64,000 nucleotides of DNA from the NCBI RefSeq assembly GCF_056746865.1, contig NZ_CM163382.1; one strand, 5' to 3'. Of this stretch, positions 12,001-15,000 are shown in pieces. Made by a program: the position numbers. The first letter of the stretch is position 1. Each line of letters begins with the position of its first letter.

Positions 12001-15000
12001 AGGTGTCCACACTGCCACGAGGTGAGTTAGCCAGGTAGTAACTGCCTATCGGGAATGGCATTGTGCGAATGATGTCCTCGTCATCCTCCAGCACTGCCAT
12101 TGCACCAGTGCTGTATGTGCCGAGGCTTCCGTATAACTGCGGCAGCGACTGATAGAGATTCGACTTATTGAACATATCGTTCATGCGGTTCTGCACCGCC
12201 TCAAGCCACAACTTAACAGGGCCATAATCCATCATTTCAGGATCTGGCGTAGCCAGGCGAAACCACGGACGCGCGGGGCTTGTGATGCCTGACATCATGC
12301 CGCTGGCGAGAGTGCGCGCCGCCATAGTCCCGGTCGAATCAATAATGCGTGTATTGCGTCGATCGTTACGGTTAACCTCAGAAGTCAGAAAGCGGGAACC
12401 ACGCGGGTTGATGTAATCACTCAACTCGCGCCAGTGCGGCTCGAACGACTGACGCTCGCTTTCAAGTTGTGCGAACTGTTTGTTCAATCGCTCTTTAGTT
12501 GTTTCCGCCATTTCAATGACTCCGGTTACTGACCAAGCAGCGTTTTACCGCTGGTATTAGCGGTTGATGTGTCGCCCTGAGAACCGGTAAGCAGCGTAGA
12601 ACTACGACCAGCAGCAGCGCGACGGCGACGAGTTTCTTCGTCGCGGGCATCAACAACGGCGGCATCCTGCTCCTGTGGTGCTGCCTGAACTTCTGGTGTT
12701 GCAGGCACTGATGGTGAGCTACCCATGCACATATCAATGACTCCGTACGCAATTAAATTATTACCAATTTAACCACATATGATTTATTTATCGTAGGTAG
12801 TTGACATTTAACGCACAAATTATTACCTTTCAGGTAACCAAAGAGTTCATTCCGGTTACTAACCTGACTGGCTTGTCGTTAAATTGAACAGGTGGAGTGA
12901 GCTTTTATTTTGAGCAGTACGGCGTATGGCACATGCGCCGATAGCGGTCTGGATACGTTTAAGGGGCACCCTCCCTTGCTCGGGCAAACGAACCAGGTAG
13001 CCGGAATGTGCAAGTCGAGCGGTTTTATTCCGCGCACGGGGATTCACCATCCCGGCGATTCGGTGTGACGCCTCGGAAGAGACGAGGGTACAACGATGAG
13101 AGCATTTATGGAGCCGCGACAAAGTGTGGCGCCTTAACAGGCTAAGTGCTCTCAGCGTTGTGGCATTAGCTCAGCTGGACAGAGCAACCGCCTTCTAAGC
13201 GGTTGGTCGCAGGTTCGAATCCTGCATGCCACGCCAGAATCACGCCTAAGGACCGTGATGCCAGAAGTTCCATGGGCTTGGCGGTGATGGTTTCCCTTGA
13301 AGGACTATCACCGCCCTTTTTACAGCAGGACGCCATTGCGATGGCTTCATGCTGTAAACCAGTACAGCCACGGAAGGCATAACTCATTGCTTCCAGTTCG
13401 CCCGGTTCGCCGGGCATTTTTTTAAGGTGAGATGATGAACGACCAGCAAATCGAAAAAGAAATCGTTGAGAAAGGTAAAACGGCACCTCGTGTAACTCCT
13501 GAGAAAATTGAAGGTCTCATTTGCAGTGAGCATTTTTTACTGCTGCGCAGGGGGATCATCAGGCTAAAGAAGATGACCTTATTTATAATCCAGAGCCTTA
13601 TGTCGAAGCCACCCCTGATGCTCTGCACCTTCTCACTTTCTGCGTCCTGGTGCTGCGCAACGACTTCACCGTCACCGGAGAGAGCGCCTGTGCAAGCCCG
13701 GAAAACTTTGATGCAGAAATTGGTCGGAAGATTGCCCGGCAGAATGCTGTAAACAAAATCTGGATGCTTGAAGGTTACTTGCTGAAGCAGAAGTTAAGCG
13801 GGCAATAACACCGTGACATGTCACAAACAGCCAGCCTATGAGCTGGCTTTGTTTTATCCTCACCAGAGGATATCAACGACATTATCCCCACCAGCGGATT
13901 AAGCATAGGGATCGTAATCTGTAATGGCCTTGCCTTGCTGGTTCTGCTGACCTGGAATTCGCAGACGCTTCGACACAGGGAAAGCAAACGTCAGCAATAG
14001 CGCATCGCCTTTACCCGGCGAACGCCCAAGACGCTCTTTGATATCTTCCTTCGGTTCGATAACGATTTTACCGTCCACGCGAACTTTGTACTCTGCCGCC
14101 GACAGGTCGTCCGCTGTTTCCTGGTCATCCAGCATGCCGCCCAGCCTCAGCCATGTCTTACATGAGTTGAACATCTCCCCACGCTTGTTAAGCATCTGCG
14201 GGTCAGTGGACGCACCGCCGAACGGAACAAGTTGCCATGTACGCCCCCAGCCATCACCGATTGACTTCAAACCGGTTCCGTAACCGAAGTCGATGAACAC
14301 TGCGTCAGCCTGGTACTGGTCTTCAAAGTCAGCGATACGCTTCGCCATAATCAGATCGTCAGTGGTCTTGTTGCCAGTCCACAGCACCTTACTGTGCAGC
14401 CCCTGCCGCAGGTATATCACAGCGTCATCAACGCCGGAGTATGCCGGGTCAACGCCGATTATCACCGGAGCATGTGCAACCTGCGCAGCGGTTACCACCC
14501 GTTTCATTGCCTCGTCAGTAAGACCGGTAGGGATAAACTGCAATTCAGATGCATCAGGGAATATGCCACGCACACGGATTTTAACGAAGTCGCTGTCTTC
14601 CCCGTAGTCATCAACCCATTTCTGCAACTGCTGTTTGTTAGTGCCTTCCACCGTCCGGCTGTCAATCTGCGCAGTTTTCCAGCGGTGTTTATATTTGCGG
14701 AAACATTCGCGAAAACGCCCGGTGTTACGTGTAGGGTTTCCGAACGCCACCCAAATAATCTCAGTGTCTTCGTCCGTAAGCGCACCCTCGGCAACTTCCC
14801 ACACCAGATCCGCAATGTTCGACGCTTCATCAAACACCACGATGATGCGTTTGCGCTCGTTGTGTAGTCCGGCGAATGCCTCAGTGTTGTGCTCAGACCA
14901 GGGTATTGCGTCAGCCCGCCACCGCTTGTCGTGCCCAGGGTCATTGCTGTACATCGCGGTAGCGGTACAGGTAAACCAGTCTTTCGTGATAGCAAGGTTC

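What the first reader, a model, noticed from the sequence alone, without database searches (positions are those of the whole stretch)
13432..13808. ORF in the tRNA cassette needs a -1 shift exactly at a canonical slippery heptamer
Frame 0 from ATG 13432 reads MMNDQQIEKEIVEKGKTAPRVTPEKIEGLICSEHF and then degenerates into Leu/Arg/Ser-rich junk. The -1 frame entered at T TTT TTA (13533-13539, an X XXY YYZ heptamer in frame 0) continues with plausible protein, FFTAAQGDHQAKEDDLIYNPEPYVEATPDALHLLTFCVLVLRNDFTVTGESACASPENFDAEIGRKIARQNAVNKIWMLEGYLLKQKLSGQ, to TAA at 13806. A small palindrome, CTGCGCAG, lies a few bases downstream of the heptamer. This is either a programmed -1 ribosomal frameshift, a homopolymer sequencing error (six T where seven are needed), or a recent frameshift mutation.
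Basis: seen in the sequence. Interest (0 to 1): 0.65.

Follow-up and report, generated by a model that had tools for sequence, protein, structure and literature searches.

The report
Broken anti-CBASS (Acb4) prophage gene
A small prophage gene of the Acb4/Gp49 family, which soaks up bacterial immune signals, has lost one T from a run of seven; the "slippery heptamer" is a by-product of that deletion, so this is an ordinary broken gene (or a one-base assembly error), not programmed frameshifting.

Summary
Frame 0 from ATG 13432 gives 35 family-like residues and then junk. The -1 frame entered at T TTT TTA (13533-13539) gives the rest of a Gp49/Sf6-gp66 protein, ending at TAA 13806. About 40 homologues were inspected, and every one that covers the site reads through it in a single ORF. 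The roughly 30 with the same flanks carry seven bases there (TTTTTTT or TTTTTTC). More distant alleles break the run (CTATTTC, TTTCTTT, TTACTTT). None of 5,426 complete E. coli genomes has the six-T allele. Deleting any T from CAT TTT TTT ACT automatically gives T TTT TTA in frame 0, so the heptamer is not independent evidence. The shift falls inside the single Pfam domain PF13876, now known as the anti-CBASS sponge Acb4. Downstream RNA folding is unremarkable, and U_UU.U_UU.A is not among the efficient E. coli motifs. The rest of the window shows no homopolymer indels over about 49 kb, and the gene carries two further private non-synonymous changes. I therefore favour a real, lineage-private inactivating deletion (about 0.7) over an assembly error (about 0.2). 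Interest is low.

The parts
13435..13808 (+). Frameshifted (pseudo)gene of the Acb4 / Gp49 / Sf6-gp66 family (PF13876). The ancestral start is ATG 13435 and the stop is TAA 13806-13808.
   Evidence: The repaired translation matches PF13876 at E 2.3e-33 over model positions 1-82 of 82 and phrog_322 at 1.2e-59. It is 98.4% identical to the intact 124-aa WP_001525344.1.
13432..13752 (+). Frame-0 ORF as it stands (106 codons). Residues 1-35 are family sequence and residues 36-106 are out-of-frame junk.
   Evidence: This exact product is absent from a collection of about 15 billion proteins.
13533..13539 (+). T6 run plus A, the 'slippery heptamer' T TTT TTA. This is the site of the one-base deletion; relatives have TTTTTTT or TTTTTTC before ACT.
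   Evidence: Alignment A1; T-run census.
13540..13808 (+). The -1-frame part of the gene. It encodes the beta-sheet core and every residue that aligns with ligand contacts of SPO1 Acb4.
   Evidence: Alignment to PDB 9E4W chain A covers query residues 56-109. Contact residues are listed in bioRxiv 10.1101/2024.12.30.630793.
13543..13550 (+). CTGCGCAG palindrome. It is coding sequence (Ala-Ala-Gln in the -1 frame), not a frameshift stimulator.
   Evidence: It is present unchanged in the in-frame relatives. The fold of 13540-13620 has z = -0.81.
13434..13434 (+). Private substitution T->G (ATT->ATG) that creates the extra upstream Met codon.
   Evidence: all relatives have ATT or ACT before the ATG.
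13663..13663 (+). Private substitution G->A (GGC->GAC, Gly->Asp) in the otherwise invariant NGFTVTGES motif. It lies next to the Phe that aligns with the base-stacking F48 of SPO1 Acb4.
   Evidence: 0 hits in IMG/VR.
13801..13801 (+). Private substitution A->G (GAG->GGG, Glu->Gly), three codons before the stop.
13400..13431 (+). Terminator-like hairpin GCCCGGTTCGCCGGGC plus a T-run (13400-13423), followed directly by the Shine-Dalgarno-like AAGGTGAG (13424-13431).
13829..13848 (.). Hairpin plus T-run between the convergent acb4-like gene and the terminase gene. The equivalent site is annotated as a rho-independent terminator in phiV10.
13160..13236 (+). tRNA-Arg (UCU), the only tRNA in the window. 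It is followed by a terminator-like hairpin at 13280-13315.
13899..15374 (-). Terminase large subunit, the conserved right-hand neighbour of the cargo slot.
10832..12511 (-). Portal protein, the conserved left-hand neighbour of the cargo slot.

Best explanation
The gene is an accessory ('moron') gene of a phiV10/epsilon15-like prophage integrated next to guaA in E. coli. It belongs to the Gp49/Sf6-gp66 family (Pfam PF13876), which has been characterised as Acb4, a tetrameric sponge that sequesters CBASS cyclic-dinucleotide signals. In this one genome a single T has been lost from an ancestral T7 run (CAT TTT TTT ACT became CAT TTT TTA CT), most likely by replication slippage. Translation from the normal start therefore yields only the first ~35 family residues followed by 71 out-of-frame residues. 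That product lacks the beta-sheet core and the whole ligand pocket, so the gene is inactivated and is a pseudogene. The 'canonical slippery heptamer' is an automatic by-product of deleting one base from a T-run that began at a third codon position. It is not an evolved recoding signal. Shown here: the deletion, its uniqueness, the in-frame state of all homologues, the family assignment and the split of a single domain. Inferred: that the deletion is real rather than an assembly error, that the product is non-functional, and that loss is tolerated because the gene is dispensable cargo.
For: 1. Nearest relatives (99.2-98.5% DNA identity) have T7 in one 124-aa ORF. More distant alleles have TTTTTTC, CTATTTC, TTTCTTT, ATATTTC or TTACTTT, and all are in frame.
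2. The census with the pattern ...CATTTTT N{0,3} ACT... found only the 7-base form: 15 of 15 IMG/VR contigs, 4 of 4 metagenome contigs, 1 of 1 species-representative genome (a Citrobacter MAG), 5 of 5 E. coli loci, plus L036 and L039.
3. None of 5,426 complete E. coli genomes has the T6 allele; the 7 with this flank all show a one-base gap.
4. The frame-0 product, the 52-aa downstream ORF, and a T6 version of the commonest allele are all absent from about 15 billion proteins. The intact protein is on 732 contigs.
5. PF13876 covers residues 20-121 of the repaired protein with the full model, so the shift at residue ~35 splits one domain. All residues aligning with SPO1 Acb4 ligand contacts lie downstream.
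6. No stimulator was found. The fold of the 81 nt downstream has z = -0.81, and 32 of 200 shuffles fold as well. That stretch is the most variable part of the gene.
7. In E. coli the efficient U-type motifs are H_HH.U_UU.Y. U_UU.U_UU.A is not listed, and UUUUUUU runs are noted as indel-prone (PMC4066793).
8. Support for a real mutation rather than an error. There are no gaps over window 1-13487 against DSM 103246. There are none over 29012-44277 against 118UI. Window 44000-64000 is 100.0% identical to at least 8 genomes, although the window holds 56 homopolymers of six bases or more. The same gene also carries two private non-synonymous changes at positions invariant in all other homologues inspected, in a 3' half that 521 other E. 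coli genomes share, and no full-length match among them carries both changes.
9. The slot is dispensable cargo. Prophages encoding the identical terminase carry Acb4 alleles, an unrelated phrog_4846 protein, or almost nothing there. Another prophage copy has an independent nonsense mutation at codon 7.
Against: No reads are available, so a single-base homopolymer miscall cannot be excluded; it is the commonest assembly error type. Two private substitutions are too few for a statistical claim of relaxed constraint, because other intact alleles also carry 0-1 private changes. U UUU UUA can still support some -1 slippage, so trace amounts of near-native protein (with Leu in place of Phe35) cannot be ruled out. 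Acb4 activity has not been shown for this enterobacterial subfamily specifically. The assignment rests on Pfam membership and a weak direct hit to PDB 9E4W (E 0.0027).
Confidence: 0.7

Rival explanations
1. Assembly or sequencing error. The genome really has seven T and an intact acb4-like gene, and the consensus dropped one T in the homopolymer.
For: The difference is exactly one base in a homopolymer whose nearest relatives all have T7. The allele is seen in no other assembly. Homopolymer undercalls are the typical error of several sequencing platforms (general knowledge).
Against: About 49 kb of the same window aligns to relatives without a single homopolymer indel. This includes 20 kb at 100.0% identity to at least 8 independent complete genomes, and the window contains 56 runs of six bases or more. 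The gene also has three private point substitutions, which are not homopolymer-type errors.
Confidence: 0.2
2. Functional recoding. The T6 allele is expressed through -1 ribosomal frameshifting at U UUU UUA, or through transcriptional slippage on the T-run. This could be a programmed signal or 'compensatory' low-level rescue of an indel.
For: The heptamer is in the correct phase, and the -1 frame opens only 5 nt upstream, so a shift there would restore a near-native protein. Most heptamers show frameshifting above background in E. coli (PMC4066793). Low-level compensation of homopolymer indels is documented elsewhere, for example the G-run of herpesvirus thymidine kinase (PMC5009743).
Against: The two-frame architecture is not conserved in about 40 homologues, and it is unique among 5,426 E. 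coli genomes. The shift splits a single domain rather than adding one, and the frame-0 tail is junk. No downstream structure stands out (z -0.81), and I saw no SD-like element 10-14 nt upstream (sequence). U_UU.U_UU.A is not among the efficient E. coli motifs, which need Y at position 7. The transcriptional slippage described in bacteria is on runs of about 9 A or T, not 6.
Confidence: 0.05
3. Phase variation. The T-run is a contingency tract that switches the anti-CBASS gene on and off by slipped-strand mispairing.
For: T7 runs are mutable, and UUUUUUU is under-represented in E. coli genes, possibly for that reason. Switching off a sponge could in principle benefit a lysogen that relies on its own CBASS (speculation).
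Against: There is no tract-length polymorphism. Every other sequence has 7 bases, and more than half of those with identical flanks have the run interrupted as TTTTTTC by a synonymous change. That is the opposite of what selection for a mutable tract would give. Seven bases is short for a contingency tract in a mismatch-repair-proficient E. coli (general knowledge).
Confidence: 0.03

Closest known systems
Acb4 (anti-CBASS 4) / Pfam PF13876 'Phage protein (N4 Gp49/phage Sf6 gene 66) family'; SPO1 Acb4, PDB 9E4W
   Same: The repaired protein matches PF13876 end to end. It aligns directly to SPO1 Acb4 over the beta-core and ligand-pocket region, with the conserved motifs F-x-V-x-G-x-S and ENF-x-x-EIGR. 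Like most family members it sits in a phage or prophage as a small accessory gene. It is 72% identical to Sf6 gp66.
   Different: The reading frame is broken at residue ~35, so the gene as it stands cannot make the domain. There is also a Gly->Asp change next to the Phe equivalent to F48. Cyclic-dinucleotide binding has not been shown for this enterobacterial allele.
Intact E. coli prophage allele WP_001525344.1 ('Gp49 family protein', 124 aa), e.g. strain TUM13773
   Same: It has the same slot between the tRNA-Arg/portal side and terminase in a phiV10-like prophage, with 99.2% DNA identity over 481 nt.
   Different: It has T7 instead of T6, Gly instead of Asp, Glu instead of Gly, and ATT instead of ATG before the start codon.
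Bona fide bacterial and phage programmed -1 frameshift sites (dnaX A AAA AAG; IS911/IS3; the lambda-like tail chaperone G/GT)
   Same: An X XXY YYZ heptamer lies in frame 0 at the frame junction.
   Different: In those systems the heptamer and the two-ORF layout are conserved across homologues. Both products are meaningful, and stimulators (an upstream SD-like element, or a downstream hairpin or pseudoknot) are present (PMC4066793, PMC5009743). None of these features was found here.
'Savior' or compensated homopolymer indels (e.g. the G7-run of herpesvirus thymidine kinase)
   Same: A one-base indel in a homopolymer could in principle be leaky through slippage on the same run.
   Different: Nothing here suggests selection for the indel or a need for trace product. 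It remains a possibility only.

Membership tests
Programmed -1 ribosomal frameshift signal | Slippery heptamer X XXY YYZ in the upstream (0) frame at the junction of the two frames | tested here: met
   CA T TTT TTA lies at 13533-13539 in frame 0. However, it is an automatic result of deleting one T from CAT TTT TTT ACT.
Programmed -1 ribosomal frameshift signal | Heptamer and two-frame gene layout conserved among homologues | tested here: not met
   Every other homologue that covers the site reads through it in a single ORF, and the site varies (TTTTTTT, TTTTTTC, CTATTTC, TTTCTTT, ATATTTC, TTACTTT).
Programmed -1 ribosomal frameshift signal | Stimulatory element: a downstream hairpin or pseudoknot at 5-9 nt, and/or an upstream SD-like sequence | tested here: not met
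   The fold of 13540-13620 gives -20.7 kcal/mol, z -0.81, and 32 of 200 shuffles fold as well. CTGCGCAG cannot form a hairpin. No GGAGG-like element lies 10-14 nt upstream. The downstream stretch is the most variable part of the gene.
Programmed -1 ribosomal frameshift signal | Both the frame-0 product and the trans-frame product are meaningful proteins | tested here: not met
   The frame-0 tail (71 aa) has no family match beyond the shared N-terminus. The shift falls inside the single PF13876 domain.
Programmed -1 ribosomal frameshift signal | Measured frameshifting efficiency well above background in the host | not testable with these tools
   Published E. coli data list H_HH.U_UU.Y as the efficient motifs, not U_UU.U_UU.A (PMC4066793). 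No value for this exact context is available.
Acb4 / PF13876 (N4 Gp49 / Sf6 gp66) family | Significant full-length match to the family profile | tested here: met
Acb4 / PF13876 (N4 Gp49 / Sf6 gp66) family | Sequence similarity to the solved founding member, covering the ligand-pocket region | tested here: met
   PDB 9E4W_A at E 0.0027, query 56-109 against chain 31-80. Phe (=F48), Phe (=F62) and Ile (=I66) are conserved, as is the ENF..EIGR motif. The match is weak but specific, being the only PDB hit.
Acb4 / PF13876 (N4 Gp49 / Sf6 gp66) family | Uninterrupted ORF able to encode the domain | tested here: not met
   A one-base deletion at 13533-13538 breaks the frame. It is a pseudogene member, not a functional one, unless the deletion is an assembly error.
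Acb4 / PF13876 (N4 Gp49 / Sf6 gp66) family | Tetramer that binds CBASS cyclic dinucleotides | not testable with these tools
   This is biochemistry shown for SPO1 Acb4 and eight homologues, not for this allele.
Phase-variable (contingency) homopolymer locus | Tract-length polymorphism among related strains, with the tract itself conserved | tested here: not met
   Only the 7-base form is seen elsewhere, and the tract is interrupted by C in most same-flank sequences.
phiV10/epsilon15-like (Uetakevirus) prophage | Synteny portal - small ORF - tRNA-Arg - gp49-like gene - terminase large/small, with high DNA identity | tested here: met
   In relatives the prophage lies next to guaA with a tyrosine integrase, and the window has the same order.

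The most novel reading that the evidence does not exclude
The T6 allele might not be dead. Low-level -1 slippage at U UUU UUA (or RNA-polymerase slippage on the T-run) could yield trace Acb4, so the indel would act as an attenuator or off-switch of a prophage anti-CBASS sponge. That could be selected in the lysogen because a fully expressed sponge would disarm the host's own CBASS.
Probability: 0.04. Interest if true: 0.5.

Novelty: already known. Interest (0 to 1): 0.1.

Why it matters
It matters mainly as a negative result. A frameshift that lands exactly on a textbook slippery heptamer looks like recoding, but any one-base loss from a T-run or A-run produces such a heptamer automatically. 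Comparing homologues separates the two cases quickly. It also updates the annotation. The 'Gp49 family protein' or 'hypothetical protein' in this prophage slot belongs to the recently characterised Acb4 anti-CBASS sponge family, and this copy is inactivated. It should be annotated as a frameshifted pseudogene (or corrected if reads show T7), not as two ORFs or a recoded gene.

Tried and rejected
1. Downstream stimulator: the RNA fold of 13540-13620 is not better than shuffles, so it was rejected.
2. Extra RNAs or tRNAs in the 'cassette': ARAGORN and Rfam (E up to 1) find only tRNA-Arg.
3. NCBIfam and PADLOC searches of the repaired protein gave no hits. The 'Gp49 family' name in RefSeq is therefore not from an NCBIfam HMM hit at the default threshold.
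4. Exact-sequence look-ups did not find this genome or a sibling. I tried the frame-0 product, the 52-aa ORF, the repaired protein with either start, and a T6 version of the common allele.
5. The neighbouring terminase protein was used to find sibling prophages. It is so common (1,462 blocks) that it did not single out the source lineage, but it did reveal the variable cargo slot.
6. Searches for the private Asp codon context found nothing in IMG/VR, and no full-length match among 521 E. coli genomes carries both private 3' substitutions.
7. I looked for a numerical efficiency for U_UU.U_UU.A in PMC4066793. The text gives classes and lists, not the per-motif value, so no number is quoted.
8. 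I considered that the host might be a non-coli Escherichia, because guaA-xseA is about 96% identical to two E. coli strains. This was rejected: 20 kb of backbone is 100% identical to several E. coli genomes.
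Full report
**1. The observation**

The sequence is as described.
- ATG 13432 opens a frame-0 ORF of 106 codons. It reads MMNDQQIEKEIVEKGKTAPRVTPEKIEGLICSEHF and then continues as Leu/Arg/Ser-rich sequence to a stop at 13750-13752.
- His34-Phe35-Leu36 are CAT TTT TTA, so T TTT TTA (13533-13539) is an X XXY YYZ heptamer in frame 0.
- The -1 frame opens just after TGA 13526-13528 and reads AFFTAAQGDHQAKEDD...KQKLSGQ to TAA 13806-13808.
- CTGCGCAG lies at 13543-13550.

Two details need correcting. There is only one tRNA in the whole 64-kb window, tRNA-Arg(UCU) at 13160-13236 (ARAGORN; Rfam), so there is no 'tRNA cassette'. 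The eight-base palindrome has no room for a loop and cannot act as a hairpin.

**2. Context**

The gene lies on the + strand between two genes on the - strand: the portal gene (10832-12511) and the large terminase gene (13899-15374). The element is a phiV10/epsilon15-like (Uetakevirus) prophage. In related E. coli genomes the same prophage type sits next to guaA with a tyrosine integrase, and the window has the same order.

The host is E. coli. Window 44000-64000 is 100.0% identical to at least eight complete E. coli chromosomes.

The gene is preceded by a terminator-like hairpin (13400-13415 plus a T-run) and a Shine-Dalgarno-like AAGGTGAG. It is followed by a hairpin (13829-13848) at the position annotated as a rho-independent terminator in phiV10.

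**3. What the gene is**

With one T restored, the 124-aa product gives the following matches.
- Pfam PF13876, 'Phage protein (N4 Gp49/phage Sf6 gene 66) family': E 2.3e-33, residues 20-121, over the whole model 1-82 of 82.
- phrog_322: E 1.2e-59.
- 98.4% identity to the RefSeq 'Gp49 family protein' WP_001525344.1, which is recorded on 732 contigs.
- 72% identity to Sf6 gp66.

PF13876 has been characterised as the Acb4 family. SPO1 Acb4 is a 96-aa protein that forms a tetramer and sequesters CBASS cyclic dinucleotides, and eight further homologues bound 3'3'-cGAMP (bioRxiv 10.1101/2024.12.30.630793).

The only PDB hit of the repaired protein is that structure: 9E4W, E 0.0027, query 56-109 against chain 31-80. 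Chain numbering is the paper's numbering plus one. On that basis every residue aligning with a ligand contact lies downstream of the shift site. These contacts are SPO1 K36, F48, E49, V56, Y57, F62, N63, I66 and T70.

**4. Test of the programmed-frameshift reading**

That criterion is met.
- **Alignment A1.** The three nearest E. coli prophage copies have CAT TTT TTT ACT in one ORF. Others have CAT TTT TTC ACT, CAC TAT TTC ACG, CAT TTC TTT ACT, GCA TAT TTC ACA and CAT TAC TTT ACT, all in frame.
- **Pattern scan.** The pattern allowed 5-8 bases in the run. It returned 15 IMG/VR contigs, 4 metagenome contigs and 1 species-representative genome (a Citrobacter MAG). Every one has the seven-base form, and so do 5 E. 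coli loci and 2 further loci. Of the 20 whose run was read directly, 12 have TTTTTTC.
- **Short query.** A 71-nt query centred on the run finds no exact match in 5,426 complete E. coli genomes. The seven hits all differ by the one-base gap.
- **Gene calls.** Wherever annotation exists, the homologue is a single CDS.

The ancestral codons are CAT TTT TTT ACT, so loss of any one T gives CAT TTT TTA CT. The 'canonical heptamer exactly at the shift' is therefore forced by the mutation and is not independent evidence. TTTTTTA occurs 11 times on the + strand of the window.

Other hallmarks of programmed frameshifting are missing.
- The shift cuts through the single domain instead of appending one.
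- The frame-0 tail matches nothing.
- The 81 nt downstream fold no better than shuffles: z -0.81, with 32 of 200 shuffles folding as well. In homologues this stretch is the most variable part of the gene.
- There is no SD-like element 10-14 nt upstream.

The systematic E. coli study lists H_HH.U_UU.Y as the efficient U-type motifs. Its list of shift-prone, under-represented patterns includes U_UU.U_UU.C and U_UU.U_UU.U but not U_UU.U_UU.A. It also notes that UUUUUUU is avoided in all frames, possibly because of indel mutation or transcriptional slippage (PMC4066793). The transcriptional slippage described in bacteria is on runs of about nine A or T (PMC5009743).

**5. Real mutation or assembly error?**

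This cannot be settled without reads, but the evidence leans towards a real mutation.

The assembly is not indel-prone.
- Window 1-13487 aligns to strain DSM 103246 at 98.5% identity with no gap.
- Window 29012-44277 aligns to strain 118UI at 99.8% identity with no gap.
- Window 44000-64000 is identical to several genomes.
- The window contains 56 homopolymers of six bases or more, and only this one differs in length.

The gene also carries three private point changes.
- T13434G (ATT->ATG, just before the start codon).
- G13663A (Gly->Asp in the NGFTVTGES motif, next to the Phe that aligns with the base-stacking F48).
- A13801G (Glu->Gly).

Both coding changes fall at positions invariant in all other homologues inspected. 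In the 3' 172 nt, which 521 other E. coli genomes share, the best full-length matches are 98.8% identical. That corresponds to two mismatches, consistent with the two private changes. The Asp codon context has no hit in IMG/VR. This fits relaxed constraint after inactivation, although two changes are too few for statistics.

Loss is plausible because the slot is dispensable cargo. Prophages encoding the identical terminase protein carry Acb4 alleles (six of ten places), an unrelated 139-140-aa phrog_4846 protein (three of ten), or almost nothing (L040). One other prophage copy (OZ197100) has an independent nonsense mutation at codon 7.

My estimates are:
- real private deletion: about 0.7
- assembly error: about 0.2
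- functional recoding: about 0.05
- phase variation: about 0.03

**6. Mechanism**

Shown: a one-base deletion in a T7 run, a split single-domain gene, uniqueness of the allele, and intact homologues everywhere else.

Inferred: replication slippage removed a T. Ribosomes starting at the normal ATG then make a 105/106-aa product with only ~35 native residues, which cannot build the beta-core, the tetramer interfaces or the nucleotide pocket. This prophage has therefore lost its Acb4-type anti-CBASS sponge.

Trace -1 slippage at U UUU UUA would give ...SEHF-L-TAAQ..., a near-native protein. By the published motif rules this should be rare, and nothing suggests it is selected.

**7. Comparison with the known, and verdict**

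The gene is a frameshifted member of a known and recently characterised family (Acb4 / PF13876) in a known prophage type. It resembles programmed -1 sites only in having a heptamer, and it fails the tests of conservation, stimulator and product logic.

It is not novel and interest is low. Its value is as a cleared false positive and as an annotation update from 'Gp49 family protein' to Acb4-family pseudogene.

Noticed in passing
window 12512-13898; loci L036-L045 about 4476-5900: The slot between the terminase and portal genes is a replaceable cargo slot in phiV10-like prophages that encode the identical terminase protein. It holds Acb4/PF13876 alleles (6 of 10 places), an unrelated 139-140-aa phrog_4846 protein of unknown function (3 of 10), or almost nothing (L040). 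It may be an anti-defence hot spot.
   Followed up: partly
window 13435-13808; alignment A1: Acb4-family alleles are mosaics. The 3' ~175 nt are nearly invariant at the DNA level from Sf6 (Lederbergvirus) to phiV10 (Uetakevirus) and E. coli prophages, whereas the middle third (about residues 36-66) is hypervariable with indels. This suggests recombination, or diversifying selection on part of the sponge.
   Followed up: no
L007 (NZ_OZ197100.1), locus 556-930: An independent loss-of-function allele of the same gene: GAA->TAA at codon 7. RefSeq annotates a shorter CDS from a downstream start.
   Followed up: partly
window 35165-43207 (- strand): A very large adhesin-type gene (about 8 kb) is split by an in-frame internal stop at 40493-40495 into ORFs of 904 and 1761 codons. 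The same internal stop is annotated in E. coli strain 118UI ('adhesion domain-containing protein, internal stop').
   Followed up: partly
window 13400-13431: A GC-rich hairpin plus T7 run (terminator-like) sits immediately before the Shine-Dalgarno sequence of the acb4-like gene. No sigma-70-like promoter was found in 12500-14000, so how this cargo gene is transcribed is unclear (read-through from the tRNA promoter?).
   Followed up: no
window 13434, 13663, 13801: Three point substitutions are private to this genome in a gene region that is otherwise almost invariant across hundreds of E. coli prophages. One converts ATT to ATG, giving a tandem ATG-ATG start.
   Followed up: yes
window 29012-35105 versus 44000-64000: The integrase-guaA-guaB-xseA stretch is only about 96% identical to strains DSM 103246 and HS4 but 99.8% identical to strain 118UI. 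The backbone further on is 100% identical to 118UI and others. The host therefore belongs to the 118UI-like lineage but carries a different prophage variant at guaA.
   Followed up: partly
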